Source: Candidatus Bilamarchaeaceae archaeon
GTDB taxonomy: Archaea > Micrarchaeota > Micrarchaeia > Anstonellales > Bilamarchaeaceae
Direction: 5' to 3'
Length of the DNA: 38,039 nucleotides
Assembly: GCA_038870635.1 (NCBI GenBank)
Contig: JAVZJR010000003.1
Span: 69,204-107,242, forward strand
The notes beneath the pieces were generated by a model, which was not told the DNA's origin, did no database searches, and saw nothing but the letters and a program-made list of their open reading frames with translations. Both the position numbers and the translations under genes were made by a program. Shown here one piece after another: positions 1,065 through 28,550 of this stretch. Position 1 is the first letter of the stretch, and each line of letters starts with the position of its first letter.

Positions 1065-2477
1065 TCAATCTGAAAAATCCATTGTTCTTAATCTACCATA
1101 TTTAAGCTCATAAACAGGCACTTGCCCAGGCGTAGGTATGTGGCCTTGTTTTATTTGATAATCTGTTCTTGCCTGAAAAGTGCCGGAATTTATTAAGACA
1201 ACACCGCGATATTGCGCATAACTGTTCTTATGTACGTGGCCGCAATGAACTACATCTGGTATTTCTTCTACAACCATGTAATCTATATTCTCAGGTACTA
1301 TTAGGTTACTGCCATAGATGGGTGAAAGGTGTCGTCTTTTCATATACTCCACCATAACTTTTTCAGGATTTTTATACGAAGTACCTGGGATATTTGCTAT
1401 AAAAGAATCTATCGATGTGCCGTGATAGATGAGATGTTTTATTCCTTCTATTATTACATATGATGGGCTACCAATTCTTGTTATATCTGATTTTATAAAT
1501 TCTTTTGGAATTGCTGGCATTGGTTCTCCTCTTCTTACCGCATCGTGATTGCCTGGGCATACTATTATGTCGATATAGTCTGGGATGGAAGCTACAAAAT
1601 CATCGAACATTTCATATTGTTTGTATATATCCTTAACAACCAACTCTTTTTCTTGTCCAGGATAAATACCTATTCCATCTACTATATCGCCTGCAACAAC
1701 AATATATTTAATTTTTGAAGCTAGTTTCTTCTCACTTTCATCTCCCTCTCCATGAAGCCATTTAACAAAGCGATCGAGCTGATTTTTAAGAAATTTATTA
1801 CTACCAAAATGAATATCTGAAATATAAGCTACAGCTAAATCATTTTCACTTGTTTTTTTTGTATTCGTTACTGGTATGTCTGGCCATTCAACTTCACTTG
1901 CTATTAGGTATGGCTCCAAAACCTTGCCTGTTATAGCAATCACGTCATCAACACAAATAGTTTCCGCCTTCTTTTTTACGTCGCCAGAAAATACAACTTT
2001 GAAAGAATCATTTAGATCCTCAACCTCAAAAAAGTAATTTCCTGCTTTTGTTTTTCTTTTTTCAGTAACCATTACTATTACTCTGACGTTTTCACCAATG
2101 CTTTTTTTTGCTTTAGAAAGACTCACTGTAGGTATATCTCTTACAGTGTGTTTTAACAACTTGCTCATTCTCTCATAACGATTTCTAAAATATTTTACGA
2201 AGTTTTCTACTTCTCCTTTTGTGCGCGATTTATCCGTGACATCATATTGGTGCAATACTCTTATGTTAGACGGATACTCTTTTGCCTCTGCTAAAAAACC
2301 ACTCGTCCTAACTTCTACTTCTTTTGGTTTTCTTTCAATTATAATTTTTTCAACATCTTCTTTTGTTATGAATGGTTTGTTCAAACTTAGCAATTTTTCT
2401 ATTATCTCTTTATTATTTTTTATTAGTTCTTCTGCCTCGATGGAGACTCTTATTCCACGTGCGGTTAATCTTTCCAT
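1065..2477 (-). CDS. polB: DNA polymerase D small subunit (DP1), calcineurin-like 3'-5' exonuclease
   Basis: OB-fold region followed by SDIHFG, AGDIVDGIGIYPGQ, PGNHD, YHG, RHLSP, GHVH and NSGTFQ motifs; ATG 2477 preferred over the track's TTG 2501, which overlaps the upstream gene. Confidence 0.95.
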   Translation of the reverse strand: MERLTARGIRVSIEAEELIKNNKEIIEKLLSLNKPFITKEDVEKIIIERKPKEVEVRTSGFLAEAKEYPSNIRVLHQYDVTDKSRTKGEVENFVKYFRNRYERMSKLLKHTVRDIPTVSLSKAKKSIGENVRVIVMVTEKRKTKAGNYFFEVEDLNDSFKVVFSGDVKKKAETICVDDVIAITGKVLEPYLIASEVEWPDIPVTNTKKTSENDLAVAYISDIHFGSNKFLKNQLDRFVKWLHGEGDESEKKLASKIKYIVVAGDIVDGIGIYPGQEKELVVKDIYKQYEMFDDFVASIPDYIDIIVCPGNHDAVRRGEPMPAIPKEFIKSDITRIGSPSYVIIEGIKHLIYHGTSIDSFIANIPGTSYKNPEKVMVEYMKRRHLSPIYGSNLIVPENIDYMVVEEIPDVVHCGHVHKNSYAQYRGVVLINSGTFQARTDYQIKQGHIPTPGQVPVYELKYGRLRTMDFSD

Positions 2478-2758: not shown

Positions 2759-2865
2759 CGGGCCCGATGGGATTTGAACCCACGACCGTCAGCTTTCTTC
2801 TCTTTTTTGGTTTTATCCTTAAAATATAGAAGGCTGCTGCGCTATCCAGGCTGCGCCACGGGCCC
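2759..2865 (-). tRNA. tRNA-Arg(UCU) with 32-nt intron at canonical 37/38 position (intron 2795-2826)
   Basis: Acceptor GGGCCCG/CGGGCCC, D arm GCGC/GCGC, anticodon TCT at 2830-2828, T arm GTGGG-TTCAAAT-CCCAT; CTTC(32-35) pairs with intron GAAG with 3-nt bulges; no encoded CCA. Confidence 0.95.
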
Positions 2866-4083: not shown

Positions 4084-5430
4084 ATGGTGGAGATAACTTG
4101 CTATGGAGGTATTAATGAAATAGGAGGTAATAAGTTTTTAGTTGAGAGCAAAAAAACACGCATATTTTTAGATTTTGGCCAATCATTTACTTTGCTTGAT
4201 GAATATTTTGTTCCAGAGGCATATCTTTATCCAAGGGAACGTTTTGGGCTGCGCGACTATTTTGCTTTCGATCTTTTACCTCAACTAAAAGGCCTTTACT
4301 CAAAAGAGGCCATAGAAAGAACTTCTCTTCCATTTTCCCATCCAGAATATGATGGTGTTCTCATCAGCCATGCTCATATAGACCATATTGAGCATCTTAA
4401 ATATCTCCATCCAGAAATACCAATTTATTTAGGCGAGGCAACGAAACTTATAATCGATTCCGCACAGGTTACTTCTTTTAATGGAGTTTCTTACATAAAA
4501 CAGGATACACCTACAATTACTTTTAGGACAGGTAAAGATTTTTCTATAGGTGATTTTAACATTAAACCAATTCATGTAGATCATTCCATACCAGGTGCTT
4601 ATGGCTTTATAATAGAAACCCCTGAAGGAAATATTGTTTATAGTGGAGATTTAAGAAAACACGGTCCTCGTGCTGATATGACCGAAGATTTTTTAAAAAA
4701 AGCAGCAGAGTGTGACCCAATACTATTTATTATAGAAGGAACGCGCGTTGCAGAAAAAGAAAAAAGAAAAAATCATAGCGAGGGTTTTGTGCAACAGGAA
4801 TCTTTACGTATAGCACAAGAGAAAAAAGGACTTATTCTAGCAATGCGTTATCCAAAAGATATCGATAGATTTAGAACTTTTTACAAAGTTGCAAAAGAAA
4901 CAGGAAAAGAATTGGTCATAACACAAAAAACAGCGCATTTGTTATTGTCTTTAAAGAACGACCCAGTTGGTCTTCCTGATCCTTATAATGATAAAACAAT
5001 AAAAATCTACAAACGTGAGAAAAAAGTTTATCAACCTTGGGAAAACCAAATAACTACTAATTGTGTTGATTCAGAATATATATCTAAAAATAAAAACAAC
5101 ATCATTCTCGAACTAGAATTTTCACAGCTTCCAGAACTTATAGATATAAAACCAGATGGAGGTGCCTGTATTCATTCAATGAGCGAGCCTTTTGAGGAAG
5201 ACCCCCTCTCTCAGATTTCAGAAGAAGTTTTGAGAAGATGGGCAAAGAAATTCAATTTAGATTATTATCAACTTCATGCTTCCGGACATGCTTCCATGGG
5301 AGAAATATTTCAGTTTATAGAGCAGGTTAATCCTGAAAGAGTCTTACCTGTACATACAACAGGTGCCCATCTTTTTAAATGCGAAAACGTTCTCTTACCA
5401 CTAAAAGGACAGACTATCTCTCTCGATTGA
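4084..5430 (+). CDS. RNase J-like metallo-beta-lactamase/beta-CASP hydrolase
   Basis: GGINEIGGN, LDFG, SHAHIDH, VDHSIPGA, SGDLRKHG, EGT and HASGH motifs. Confidence 0.85.
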   Translation: MVEITCYGGINEIGGNKFLVESKKTRIFLDFGQSFTLLDEYFVPEAYLYPRERFGLRDYFAFDLLPQLKGLYSKEAIERTSLPFSHPEYDGVLISHAHIDHIEHLKYLHPEIPIYLGEATKLIIDSAQVTSFNGVSYIKQDTPTITFRTGKDFSIGDFNIKPIHVDHSIPGAYGFIIETPEGNIVYSGDLRKHGPRADMTEDFLKKAAECDPILFIIEGTRVAEKEKRKNHSEGFVQQESLRIAQEKKGLILAMRYPKDIDRFRTFYKVAKETGKELVITQKTAHLLLSLKNDPVGLPDPYNDKTIKIYKREKKVYQPWENQITTNCVDSEYISKNKNNIILELEFSQLPELIDIKPDGGACIHSMSEPFEEDPLSQISEEVLRRWAKKFNLDYYQLHASGHASMGEIFQFIEQVNPERVLPVHTTGAHLFKCENVLLPLKGQTISLD

Positions 5431-5436
5431 AGAAGC

Positions 5437-5498
5437 GGTAACTCAACAGCTACTCTTGTCATCACATCTCAGACTGGGACGGTAATTTCATCGTTACC
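5437..5498 (-). ncRNA. C/D box 2'-O-methylation guide sRNA, predicted 23S rRNA targets Gm2251 and Um2438 (E. coli numbering)
   Basis: Minus strand: C box ACGATGA (5494-5488), guide AATTACCGTCCCAGT, D' CTGA (5472-5469), C' GTGATGA (5465-5459), guide CAAGAGTAGCTG, D TTGA (5446-5443), terminal stem GGTAAC/GTTACC. Confidence 0.85.
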
Positions 5499-5560
5499 AA
5501 TTTTATTATGCATAATTTAAAATTAAAACTTATGTTTTTGACGAAATCTGCGAAGAGTAG

Positions 5561-5611: not shown

Positions 5612-5734
5612 ATGGAGCTCACTGAGCAAGAAAAAATAAAAAATGGAATCTGTCCTTCCTGTGGTGCTAATCTTGTTTTTCAAGAAGGTTGTATGACTTG
5701 TATGCAGTGCGGTTGGGGCGCTTGCGACGGTTAA
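5612..5734 (+). CDS. 40-aa stand-alone Cys-rich zinc ribbon resembling the class II ribonucleotide reductase (NrdJ) C-terminal tail
   Basis: MELTEQEKIKNGICPSCGANLVFQEGCMTCMQCGWGACDG*; RBS and TATA upstream; in-frame stop at 5558-5560; not in ORF track. Confidence 0.85.
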   Translation: MELTEQEKIKNGICPSCGANLVFQEGCMTCMQCGWGACDG

Positions 5735-6417: not shown

Positions 6418-7653
6418 TTAAGACCTTATTGGATCTTGACCATCAACACATATGCAATTTTTGCCTGATTTTTTTCCTCTATAAAGTTGGTCGTCTGCTG
6501 CTTTTATCAATCGTTCTATTATCTCGTCATCGATTTTTTCTATATCCCCAACCACTTTTTTTAAGCTTGAAACTCCAAAGGTGCAGCTAACTTTTAGGAT
6601 GCCTCCTATTCCTAAGTCTATTGCAATGTTGTTTATTAAATCTCTGAATCTTTTTGCGCACTGCACTGCACCGTCAAGATTGGTCATAACTAAATGTAAA
6701 AACTCTTCGCCACCCCATCTTGCTAAGAAATCGGGGTAGACATTTCCTCTTTCCTTATCATCTCTTTTTTTTCTCGTACTCTCAAATATCCGTCTACTTA
6801 TTGTTTCTAATACTAAATCCCCTGTAAGATGACCGTAAGTGTCGTTTATTTGCTTAAAATTATCTATGTCAAACATTATCAGGGCGAAATCATCTATTTT
6901 TTTGCTATTGTATAGACTTATAGTTGCTTTTAGTTGTTCATCTATAGCTATTCTCGTTGGTAAGTTAGTTAATGGGTCAAAATTTTCTACTATCCTTGAA
7001 ACACCGCTTGAGAGCGTAGATATGAGGAGCATTGTTTCCCTTATAGCTTCCTCGCCGGAAAGATTGGAACCACGTATAGTGAGATCATTGCCAGTTATGG
7101 TCCAAACACCAAGCTTTCTTGGTTCTGTATAGAAATTTTTAGTATATATTGGTGATATTATTTTTTGATTTTTTATATCGACAGGCAAATCAATATTTTT
7201 TTCAGCTTCGTAATCACCTATTTTTGTGTTGTATATTTTCATCTTTTTTTTATCTATAAATATAAACGCCATTTCATTATCAATAGCCGCAACTTGGGGT
7301 ACGATGAGTGCTTTTTGTTTTAAATCGATAGTTTCATAAATTCTTAGGTCATAATCGCGTTCTTCCGCTACTTTTTCACATTCATTTAAGTTTTGCTTTA
7401 CTGTTATAAAATGAATTAATTTATTTTTTATATAAAAATGCAAAGAAGAACTTTGGGGCTCCTTAAGATGAGAAAGTACCAATTCTAAATAACATTCAAA
7501 ATCTTTGAAGTTTGTATTTTGGGCTCGACAAAGAGAATATATTGTCATTGCATATGCCGGTGATACGAGCACTTCTTCCACTAGAGGCGTATTATTTTTT
7601 TCTTTTTGTGGGATGTTTTTAAGTGGCCCACCATTATTTTTTAAGTTATGCAT
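6418..7653 (-). CDS. GGDEF-domain diguanylate cyclase with N-terminal GAF-like region
   Basis: DPLTNLP, FDIDNFKQINDTYGHLTGD, ARWGGEEF, SCTFGVS and ADDQLYRGKKSGKN motifs. Confidence 0.92.
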   Translation of the reverse strand: MHNLKNNGGPLKNIPQKEKNNTPLVEEVLVSPAYAMTIYSLCRAQNTNFKDFECYLELVLSHLKEPQSSSLHFYIKNKLIHFITVKQNLNECEKVAEERDYDLRIYETIDLKQKALIVPQVAAIDNEMAFIFIDKKKMKIYNTKIGDYEAEKNIDLPVDIKNQKIISPIYTKNFYTEPRKLGVWTITGNDLTIRGSNLSGEEAIRETMLLISTLSSGVSRIVENFDPLTNLPTRIAIDEQLKATISLYNSKKIDDFALIMFDIDNFKQINDTYGHLTGDLVLETISRRIFESTRKKRDDKERGNVYPDFLARWGGEEFLHLVMTNLDGAVQCAKRFRDLINNIAIDLGIGGILKVSCTFGVSSLKKVVGDIEKIDDEIIERLIKAADDQLYRGKKSGKNCICVDGQDPIRS

Positions 7654-26660: not shown

Positions 26661-28550
26661 CTATATGTCTAAATTCCTTACCTCTACTGCGTGTTTTTCT
26701 ATGAATTCTCTTCTTGGTTCTACTTCTTCACCCATTAGTACCCTAAATATTTCATCAGCAAGCATCGCATCCTTTATTGTTACCTTTTTCAGTGTTCTTC
26801 TTTCAGGGTCCATTGTTGTTTCCCAAAGTTGTTCTGGATTCATCTCACCTAGACCTTTGTATCGTTGTATTTCAGCACCTTTCATATCTTCATTGAGCAT
26901 TTTCTTAAGTTCATCATCACTATAAGCATATCTCACTTCTTTACCTTTCTTTAATTTGTATAGTGGCGGCTGCGCTATATATAGATGACCTGTTTCTATT
27001 ATTGGTCTAAAGTATCTATAAAAGAGTGTAAGCAAAAGCGTTCTTATATGACTACCGTCTACATCTGCATCTGTCATTATTATTATCTTGTTGTATCTTA
27101 ACTTCTTTATGTCAAACTCATCTTTTATACCAGTTCCTAGCGCTATTGCTATTGCCTTTATCTCTTCGTTAGAAAGCGCTTTGTGAAGCGGTGCCTTTTC
27201 CACGTTTAAAATTTTTCCGCGCAATGGAAGTATTGCCTGATATCTTCTGTCTCTTCCTTGTTTTGCCGAACCACCTGCAGAATCACCTTCAACAAAATAC
27301 AATTCTGTTTTTTCCACATCTTTTTCAGTACAATCTGCTAATTTCCCAGGAAGCATGCTTGTTTCGAAAACATTTTTTCTTCTTATCAACTCCTTTGCTT
27401 TCTGTGCAGCTTCTCTTGCTTCCATAGATTTCATAACCTTTGCTGCGATTGCTCTTGCATCGTTTGGATTCTCCTCAAAATGACGCATAATTGTTTCGTA
27501 GACAAAACTATCTACAAGTCCTTTTATTTCGCTGTTGCCTAATTTTGTTTTAGTTTGTCCCTCGAATTGGGGCTCAGGAACTTTTACAGATATTATCGCA
27601 GTTAAGCCTTCAACAACATCTTCGCCTTTTAACTTGCTCTCTCCTTTAAGATATTTTTCCTTTGTGAGATATTCATTAGTTGCTCTGGTTATCGCAGTTT
27701 TATATCCACTTACATGCGTTCCGCCTTCAATTGTGTTTATGTTATTAACAAAAGAGTATATTGTTTCGCTATAACTTTCAGTGTACTGCATTGCGTATTC
27801 CATTTCTATATCGCCTTCTGTTTTTTTCGCATAGATAACTGGATGAAGTTTTGGTTTTGCTCTATTGATATGCTCAACAAACTGCTTTATTCCTCCTTCA
27901 TAATGATAATACTCTCGCTCTCCAACACGTTCATCTGTGAATAGTATGCTTATAGTGGGATTGAGAAACGCCAGTTCCATCAATCTTTCCTTAAGATAAT
28001 CAAAATCAAATTCCACACCGCCAAATATTTTAGGATCTGGTTTAAATCTAACTATGGTACCTCTTTTTTGGGTTTCTCCAACTACTTTAACCTCACAAGT
28101 TGGCTTTCCATACTCATAACTTTGAAAGTATACTTTTCCTCCTCGATGAACTTCAACTTCCATTCTTTCGCTCAATGCATTTACAACAGAAATACCAACA
28201 CCATGCAAGCCACCACTAACCTTGTAGGCTTTTTTCTCGAATTTCCCTCCTGCGTGCAGTATGGTAGTTACAACCTCCAGGGCAGATTTTCCACTTTCGT
28301 GCATTTCTGTAGGTATTCCCCTTCCATCATCTTTTACAGAAGCAGAACCATCTTTATGTATAATCACCTCAATGTTTTTCGCATAACCTGCTAAAGCTTC
28401 ATCTATGCTGTTATCAAGTACTTCAAAAAGCAAGTGATGGAATCCTCTTTTGTTTGTATCACCGATGTACATTGCTGGTCTTTTTCTAACCGCTTCTAAA
28501 CCTTCTAAAATCTGGATATCTTTAGCTGAGTACTCTTCTTCCACCGTCAT
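26661..28550 (-). CDS. gyrB: DNA gyrase subunit B
   Basis: VRKRPAMYIG, EVLDNSIDE, SGGLHGVG, EGDSAGG, PLRGKILN, DADVDG and YKGLGEM motifs. Confidence 0.98.
   Translation of the reverse strand: MTVEEEYSAKDIQILEGLEAVRKRPAMYIGDTNKRGFHHLLFEVLDNSIDEALAGYAKNIEVIIHKDGSASVKDDGRGIPTEMHESGKSALEVVTTILHAGGKFEKKAYKVSGGLHGVGISVVNALSERMEVEVHRGGKVYFQSYEYGKPTCEVKVVGETQKRGTIVRFKPDPKIFGGVEFDFDYLKERLMELAFLNPTISILFTDERVGEREYYHYEGGIKQFVEHINRAKPKLHPVIYAKKTEGDIEMEYAMQYTESYSETIYSFVNNINTIEGGTHVSGYKTAITRATNEYLTKEKYLKGESKLKGEDVVEGLTAIISVKVPEPQFEGQTKTKLGNSEIKGLVDSFVYETIMRHFEENPNDARAIAAKVMKSMEAREAAQKAKELIRRKNVFETSMLPGKLADCTEKDVEKTELYFVEGDSAGGSAKQGRDRRYQAILPLRGKILNVEKAPLHKALSNEEIKAIAIALGTGIKDEFDIKKLRYNKIIIMTDADVDGSHIRTLLLTLFYRYFRPIIETGHLYIAQPPLYKLKKGKEVRYAYSDDELKKMLNEDMKGAEIQRYKGLGEMNPEQLWETTMDPERRTLKKVTIKDAMLADEIFRVLMGEEVEPRREFIEKHAVEVRNLDI

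What the first reader, a model, noticed from the sequence alone, without database searches (positions are those of the whole stretch)
5437..5498. Hidden dual-guide C/D box sRNA aimed at the 23S peptidyl-transferase centre
Seen: on the minus strand, a complete C-guide-D'-C'-guide-D layout closed by a 6-bp terminal stem (GGTAAC/GTTACC), with a TTTAAA box about 20-25 nt upstream. Established: C/D RNPs methylate the target base paired to the 5th nucleotide upstream of D or D'. Inference: the D' guide (TACCGTCCCAGT) pairs, with one G-U, to the conserved P-loop ACUGGGGCGGUA, and the +5 rule lands exactly on G2251 (E. coli numbering), the near-universal Gm site. The D guide (CAAGAGTAGCTG) matches the AGCUACxCUx segment just before GGGAUAAC, predicting Um at about U2438. 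One sRNA would modify two PTC-proximal sites in a probably reduced archaeal genome. It is invisible to ORF annotation.
Basis: partly seen in the sequence, partly recalled or inferred. Interest (0 to 1): 0.8.

Follow-up and report, generated by a model that had tools for sequence, protein, structure and literature searches.

The report
Ribosome methylation guide RNA, imperfect guides
This is a real, unannotated small guide RNA of a tiny-genome archaeon that most likely places sugar methyl marks at two sites beside the ribosome's catalytic centre; it is a known kind of RNA, with the oddity that its relatives keep one imperfect pair in each guide.

Summary
Confirmed: a 62-nt archaeal box C/D sRNA gene lies at 5498-5437 (minus strand). 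The stem and one box pair covary, a TATA-like motif is positionally conserved, and homologues occur in 46 of 49 same-order genomes. The host (Micrarchaeota) encodes fibrillarin, Nop5 and L7Ae. The D' guide pairs 12/12 (two G-U) with the host P-loop, +5 on G2251. The D guide is weak here (6 bp, A-C mismatch, 2 bp; not above shuffles alone). It nevertheless tracks each relative's own 23S at three variable positions, so U2438 is the target; whether it is methylated is untested. Both sites were already predicted in other archaea, with other partner guides, and the scan noted this same pair on another genome (e1-5284294). New here: no core duplex was perfect. 0 of 61 P-loop guides were fully Watson-Crick, and 51 of 51 U2438 guides carry exactly one A-C mismatch (+8 or +9). 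This suggests selected weak binding, though tolerated drift is not excluded. It also proposes U2438 as target of a Methanococcus guide published without one. No transcript evidence was available. Verdict: new member of a known kind, with a modest, testable twist.

The parts
5437..5498 (-). box C/D sRNA gene (stem to stem, 62 nt)
5493..5498 (-). 5' arm of terminal stem (GGTAAC)
   Evidence: 6 pairs, 5 with two-sided changes in 20 sequences
5485..5491 (-). box C, degenerate (ATGAAAT); TGA invariant in 20 of 20 aligned copies
5473..5484 (-). D' guide for the 23S P-loop; +5 base at 5477 pairs with the G2251 equivalent (G000:C7:5720); U-G wobble at +7 (5479)
5469..5472 (-). box D' (CTGA)
5459..5465 (-). 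box C' (GTGATGA)
5447..5458 (-). D guide for the 3' strand leading into helix 74; +5 base at 5451 pairs with the U2438 equivalent (G000:C7:5910); A-C mismatch at +8 (5454)
5443..5446 (-). box D, variant (TTGA)
5437..5442 (-). 3' arm of terminal stem (GTTACC)
5516..5528 (-). probable TATA box region (two overlapping TTTTAA/TTTAAA words, 31-37 nt before box C)
   Evidence: positional conservation in 33 of 40 homologues; function inferred

Best explanation
An independently transcribed, dual-guide archaeal box C/D sRNA. Shown in sequence: boxes, stem, both guide-target pairings, conservation and covariation. From established knowledge: L7Ae binds the two kink motifs, Nop5 and fibrillarin join, and fibrillarin methylates the ribose paired to the fifth guide base before each D box. 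Inferred: the D' guide installs Gm2251 in the P-loop (about 0.9). The D guide installs Um2438 next to helix 74, 190 nt downstream (about 0.75), its weak duplex probably helped by the particle being tethered through the strong P-loop guide. Also inferred, with less support (about 0.45): the one imperfect pair in each guide is kept by selection, so that these GC-rich rRNA strands are released to form helices 80 and 74.
For: Host machinery: fibrillarin (NCBIfam above cut-off), Nop5, L7Ae. No SpoU/RlmB-type stand-alone methylase was found in this 89.6% complete genome, while all 14 controls ring. P-loop duplex -21.4 kcal/mol. In 51 relatives with both sRNA and 23S, position +4 is G-C in 45 and A-U in 6, and +10 is G-C in 27 and A-U in 24; every one of these pairs is Watson-Crick. 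The +5 bases fall on alignment columns G2520 and U2712 of Dennis et al. 2015, where G2520 = E. coli G2251 and Neq sR14 is predicted to act at U2712 (PMC4644070). Gm at the G2251 equivalent is annotated in the Thermococcus cryo-EM ribosome (PMC12124282, passages). Structure covariation: 89.4% of cells paired against 67.8% shuffled, 0 of 500 shuffles as high.
Against: No transcript or methylation data. In this genome the D duplex is only 6 + 2 bp, -10.0 kcal/mol, below the 9 continuous Watson-Crick pairs that Lui et al. generally require (PMC6009581, passages), and not above shuffled guides. The P-loop duplex also has fewer than 9 continuous Watson-Crick pairs because of the +7 wobble. The two targets are 190 nt apart, beyond the 100-nt relaxation rule. 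I found no paper that maps Um2438 experimentally. In 15 of 61 homologues box D' is shifted or degenerate.
Confidence: 0.76

Rival explanations
1. The RNA methylates G2251, but in this family the D guide only binds the helix-74 strand (a folding aid or tether) and seldom or never methylates U2438.
For: Weakest duplex class: mismatches at +8 and +11, core -8.9 against -17.3 kcal/mol for a full complement. 17 of 51 relatives also mismatch at +11. Guides that pair without methylating are proposed in PMC6009581.
Against: The +5 pair and +2 to +7 are Watson-Crick in 51 of 51 (the search motif fixed five of these six guide letters), whereas the published non-methylating cases mismatch at +5 itself. 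Box D keeps its GA in nearly all copies. The same site has perfect guides in other archaea.
Confidence: 0.17
2. The D guide is aimed at a different RNA (tRNA, 16S or mRNA), which would explain the constant mismatch.
For: In the host, a few other places score 1-2 points higher than the helix-74 site, and many genomic 12-mers match it with one mismatch.
Against: The guide follows the 23S letter for letter at +4, +9 and +10 across families, and at +8 where one genome has U2441. The higher-scoring host places are at chance level.
Confidence: 0.04
3. On the mismatches only: they are tolerated drift, not selected. G-to-A and C-to-U are the commonest changes in AT-rich genomes and give the mildest mispairs, and relatives inherit them.
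For: Kin are not independent; the +8 to +9 move may be only one to three events. Nearly all defects are transitions. A second host guide (near U2504) has A at +8 in 23 of 29 genomes but the matching G in 6 (one genus), so a perfect form is viable there. Perfect U2438 duplexes exist in 12 of 17 genomes where the partner guide is different.
Against: No zero-mismatch and no two-mismatch state among 51 U2438 cores, although neighbouring positions changed repeatedly. Where +8 pairs, +9 mismatches (5 of 51). The fully complementary P-loop guide before CTGA was found in 1 of 401 genomes, and that hit has no box C, against 39 of 401 for the +7 wobble form. Seven published archaeal P-loop guides from six species are all imperfect (read by eye).
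Confidence: 0.4
4. On the mismatches only: they stop the two guides from pairing with each other, since fully complementary guides would carry a C-run and a G-run.
For: The guide-guide duplex is weaker than for fully complementary guides in 51 of 51 (mean -2.8 against -8.0 kcal/mol). The U2438 guide is imperfect in 15 of 15 genomes with a P-loop partner, against 5 of 17 otherwise.
Against: Any mismatch weakens such a duplex. In 4 of 51 genomes the two changes complement each other and the guide-guide duplex stays at -8.0. Methanococci keep the +8 mismatch with an unrelated partner, and published P-loop guides are imperfect with unrelated partners.
Confidence: 0.2
5. Chance arrangement of box-like words in AT-rich intergenic DNA.
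For: Rfam gives only sub-threshold hits. The naked RNA fold is unremarkable (z -1.32).
Against: Homologues in 46 of 49 same-order genomes, a covarying stem, a positioned TATA, and conservation without shared gene neighbours.
Confidence: 0.01

Closest known systems
Archaeal box C/D sRNAs for the P-loop: Tte sR107, Pca sR36, Mka sR13/sR45 (predicted G2520 = E. coli G2251; Dennis et al. 2015, PMC4644070), and by my reading Neq sR04, Iho sR410, Sac sR110
   Same: Same architecture and the same target. Four of them carry the same U at +7.
   Different: Each has a different second guide; none is paired with the U2438 guide (supplement rows).
Nanoarchaeum equitans sR14 (D guide predicted at alignment U2712 = E. 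coli U2438)
   Same: Near-identical D guide in the same position and the same target column.
   Different: There the 23S has U at 2441, so +8 pairs. Its D' guide is unrelated and has no predicted target.
Methanococcus maripaludis sR106 / methanococcal members of Rfam sR2 (RF01139)
   Same: Carries the same U2438-type guide with the same A-C mismatch at +8.
   Different: The guide sits before D', with another partner, and was listed with no predicted target. Methanococcal copies pass the sR2 gathering score (56.2 and 55.2 against 42); the dual P-loop/U2438 RNAs do not.
Eukaryotic SNORD31 (Rfam RF00089); yeast counterpart snR67 (name and target recalled)
   Same: D' guide differs from the Rfam consensus by one base over 12; same P-loop site.
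   Different: 25.4 bits against a gathering score of 40. The consensus has C at +7 (fully complementary), and the D guide is unrelated.

Membership tests
archaeal box C/D sRNA (class) | C, D', C', D boxes able to form two kink motifs | tested here: met
   D' and C' perfect; C and D degenerate with a covarying box pair; GA dinucleotides kept
archaeal box C/D sRNA (class) | 10-12-nt guides with a Watson-Crick pair at +5 to a host stable RNA | tested here: met
   both guides 12 nt; +5 pairs with host 23S at positions 2273 and 2463 of the gene
archaeal box C/D sRNA (class) | about 9-10 continuous Watson-Crick pairs around +5 (usual prediction rule) | tested here: inconclusive
   D' guide 12/12 with G-U at +1 and +7; D guide 6 + 2 bp, not above shuffles alone but covarying
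archaeal box C/D sRNA (class) | host encodes L7Ae, Nop5 and fibrillarin | tested here: met
   (L7Ae and Nop5 were scanned as part-length pieces, best hits below whole-protein cut-offs; Pfam cut-offs passed)
archaeal box C/D sRNA (class) | expressed ~60-nt RNA bound by the proteins; 2'-O-methylation at the targets | not testable with these tools
   no RNA holder listed
Rfam SNORD31 (RF00089) | score at or above gathering (40 bits) | tested here: not met
   25.4 bits; 0 gathering hits in 16 homologue loci
Rfam sR2 (RF01139) | score at or above gathering (42 bits) | tested here: not met
   no hit on the window at E <= 5; only the two methanococcal loci of 20 pass
Rfam sR44 (RF01129) | score at or above gathering (45 bits) | tested here: not met
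   19.3 bits

The most novel reading that the evidence does not exclude
This is a member of an old guide-RNA family of Micrarchaeota, Altiarchaeota and allied DPANN lineages that couples the P-loop and helix-74 sites. Its guides are selected to be imperfect: one weak pair is always kept, and it moves position when the rRNA changes. Archaeal guides for GC-rich catalytic-centre strands would then be tuned for release rather than maximal pairing. A share of 'orphan' archaeal guides, such as M. maripaludis sR106, would have ordinary rRNA targets missed by perfect-match rules.
Probability: 0.4. Interest if true: 0.6.

Novelty: new member of a known kind. Interest (0 to 1): 0.38.

Why it matters
It shows that small-genome symbiotic archaea keep RNA-guided modification of the peptidyl-transferase centre, apparently with only a handful of guides (four candidates by a strict scan here). 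It defines a guide family that Rfam lacks. The class and both sites are known, so the gene itself is ordinary. The useful part is the built-in mismatch: if selected, it changes how guide targets should be predicted, and it can be tested directly in Methanococcus maripaludis, a genetic model whose guide shows the same mismatch.

Tried and rejected
Expression: no RNA holder listed. The one same-study RNA run laid on the host 23S gave only 12 short contigs at 90-95% likeness, none over the U2438 site, so it says nothing on expression or editing. C-to-U editing of the rRNA as the cause of the A-C pair: could not be tested; judged unlikely because the mismatch moves between +8, +9 and +10. A special mis-pairing trap between the two target strands: their duplex ranks 240 of 2848 23S 12-mers, so not special. 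A simple stability ceiling: not consistent, since the native P-loop core (-18.1) is stronger than a fully paired U2438 core would be (-17.3). Functional link to the neighbouring RNase J-like gene: present beside the sRNA in 1 of 41 loci, the window's own (about 1.5 kb each side). Rfam membership: none at gathering. Own errors corrected: the helix-74 pattern had the wrong length, the duplex strings were off by one (redone), and the box pairs were set one column off (redone). No search of viral contigs was made.

Full report
Observation. The minus strand at 5498-5437 holds a 6-bp stem, box C ATGAAAT, a 12-nt guide, box D' CTGA, a 3-nt loop, box C' GTGATGA, a second 12-nt guide, box D TTGA and the closing stem. 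It lies between a convergent RNase J-like gene ending at 5430 and an unnamed minus-strand ORF ending at 5731. Rfam gives only weak hits (SNORD31 25.4 bits against 40; sR44 19.3 against 45). A strict scan of the 859-kb genome for the whole layout found 4 candidates against 1 in each of 3 shuffles. Three real candidates had a guide score of 20 or more, against none in the shuffles, and this locus ranked first.

Conservation. A DNA search of 61 genomes gave 19 clear homologues. In the 20-row alignment both guides and the box GA pairs are nearly invariant while spacers vary. The stem has 5 of 6 pairs with two-sided changes. With the two box pairs added, 89.4% of cells pair against 67.8% in shuffles, 0 of 500 as high, and slid controls give 22-44% (related sequences inflate this). 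A covariance model hits 73 of 151 phylum genomes: 46 of 49 in the same order, but 1 of 46 (weak) and 0 of 25 in two large families. Of the 80 record titles shown, 77 were archaeal: Micrarchaeota, Nanoarchaeota, Altiarchaeota, Methanococci and others. In 48 of the 120 a P-loop guide lies upstream, as here (two rows are doubtful). Titles shown for these include Micrarchaeota, Anstonellales, Altiarchaeota, one Ca. ainarchaeum and one Undinarchaeota record. The host's placing in Micrarchaeota rests on these named homologues and on earlier scan notes. A TATA-like word sits 31-40 nt before box C in 33 of 40 loci against 1-10 in other bins, and the neighbouring genes are not shared. I infer a free-standing gene with its own promoter.

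Machinery. Fibrillarin, Nop5 and L7Ae are in the genome. No SpoU-family methylase, the family of bacterial RlmB (recalled), was found, though the genome is 89.6% complete.

Target 1. The D' guide pairs at all 12 positions with the host 23S P-loop, with G-U at +1 and +7. It is the best match among host 23S, 16S and 33 tRNAs, reached by 2 of 150 shuffles. The +5 base falls on alignment column G2520, which Dennis et al. equate with E. coli G2251 and predict to be methylated in three of seven archaea (PMC4644070). Gm at this site is annotated in the Thermococcus ribosome structure (PMC12124282). The P-loop sequence is the same in 23 of 29 genomes examined, interrupted by an intron in 5 and not recovered in 1.

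Target 2. Against the host site AAGCTACCCTGG the D guide gives six Watson-Crick pairs (+2 to +7), an A-C mismatch at +8, two pairs and a mismatch at +11. Alone this is chance level. Comparison rescues it. I examined 61 homologues (20, 41 more from the model hits; 23 of the 73 model hits were not fetched). For 51 the own 23S site was recovered and 10 were dropped for lack of it. Position +4 is G-C in 45 and A-U in 6; +10 is G-C in 27 and A-U in 24; +9 turns to A-U in the 2 genomes whose rRNA has U there. The +5 base is column U2712 of the Dennis alignment, E. coli U2438 by my count on the aligned E. coli row, where Nanoarchaeum sR14 is predicted to act.

The built-in imperfection. All 51 U2438 cores (+2 to +10) have exactly one mismatch, always A-C: 46 at +8 and 5 at +9. 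In one of the five the rRNA has U2441 and the guide pairs there. All 61 P-loop cores (+2 to +11) have one (50) or two (11) non-Watson-Crick pairs, mostly U-G at +7 but also at +3, +6, +8, +9 or +10 (the host P-loop was used for all). These homologues were found with queries carrying the same features. The 48 loci were not selected on the P-loop guide and also include no perfect core, though they partly overlap the same genomes. A direct pattern test found the fully complementary P-loop guide before CTGA in 1 of 401 genomes, where it has no box C and appears to lie in coding sequence, against 39 of 401 for the +7 form. Seven published archaeal guides that I read as P-loop guides are all imperfect. 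M. maripaludis sR106, listed without a target, has the same A-C at +8, as do 3 of 3 methanococcal genomes with a recovered 23S. Against a universal rule: the U2438 duplex is perfect in 12 of 17 genomes with another partner guide (32 of 50 genomes usable). In Altiarchaeota the mismatch is at +10, the edge of the helix. A second host guide has the +8 A in 23 of 29 genomes but the matching G in 6 (relatives' rRNA not checked there). Kin are not independent. Avoidance of guide-guide pairing fits in part but fails in 4 of 51 genomes and in Methanococci. I put selected weakness at about 0.45, tolerated drift at about 0.4, with the remainder for other causes.

Mechanism. Known chemistry (L7Ae, Nop5, fibrillarin, +5 rule; PMC4644070) applied to pairings shown here predicts Gm2251 with high confidence and Um2438 with moderate confidence. 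Dennis et al. propose that dual guides with distant targets help folding; the 190-nt spacing here fits that idea but is not evidence for it. Transcript and marks are untested.

Literature. I saw PMC4644070 parts 1, 3 and 4 of 6, passages, searched rows of supplement 1 and part 3 of supplement 2. For PMC12124282, PMC6009581, PMC7994747 and PMC7089733 I saw passages only; other papers only as search listings. Searches listed no paper on Micrarchaeota C/D sRNAs, on this guide pair, on Um2438 in archaea or on conserved distal mismatches. The library lacks most subscription papers, and supplements I did not open (for example pan-archaeal modification maps) may already hold Um2438 data. Lui et al. 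describe conserved mismatches at +5 only, in the passages seen.

Verdict. A real sRNA, correctly read by the first stage; a new member of a known class aimed at sites already predicted in archaea. An earlier scan note reports the same pair on another genome (e1-5284294). Interest 0.38, carried mostly by the mismatch pattern.

Noticed in passing
L052, L045, L044, L043, L051 (23S of G007, G019, G025, G031, G053): Introns of 698-886 nt sit inside the P-loop, between the G2252 and G2253 equivalents, with ends that by eye form a bulge-helix-bulge and no sense-strand ORF over 41 aa. The guide's full target exists only after splicing; G025, G031 and G053 carry the sRNA.
   Followed up: partly
L013, L019, L020, L021, L024, L026, L225, L255, L258: In 9 of 61 homologues, mostly with an internal hairpin, the D' GA lies one base closer to the guide. 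By the strict +5 rule this would move the mark to G2252; in 6 more D' is degenerate.
   Followed up: partly
G000:C1:385372-385430 (+): A second host C/D sRNA with perfect boxes; guides point at the A-loop (U2552 equivalent by my count) and near U2504, the latter with an A-C mismatch at +8.
   Followed up: partly
G000:C2:115762 (-) and G000:C2:77519 (+): Two more C/D sRNA candidates; one guide matches 23S position 862 over 10 pairs, the other three guides have no clear target.
   Followed up: partly
L001:3958-3990 (host 23S): The catalytic-centre sequence reads GGAGGTAAC where E. coli and most aligned archaea read GGGGAUAAC; relatives show GGAGGTAAC or GGGGGTAAC. The A2503 equivalent appears to be C.
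   Followed up: no
window 6418-7653 (-): An ORF with a GGDEF diguanylate-cyclase domain (TIGR00254, 112.5 bits), which is unusual in an archaeon.
   Followed up: no
window 2759-2865 (-): An intron-containing tRNA gene found by Rfam and by ARAGORN only with introns allowed.
   Followed up: no
window 26871-26923 (-) and 1959-2025 (-): Weak Rfam hits to sR5 (E 2.7) and to the sodium riboswitch (E 0.18, inside a coding gene); probably chance.
   Followed up: no
L061, L069, L072, L101, L108: Other Micrarchaeota records carry the U2438 guide before D' with a different partner guide and no P-loop guide. This may be why two large families lack model hits.
   Followed up: no
L004 (host 16S, G000:C7:20545-22117): The 16S gene is about 95 nt longer than the model and lies about 14 kb from the 23S gene.
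   Followed up: no
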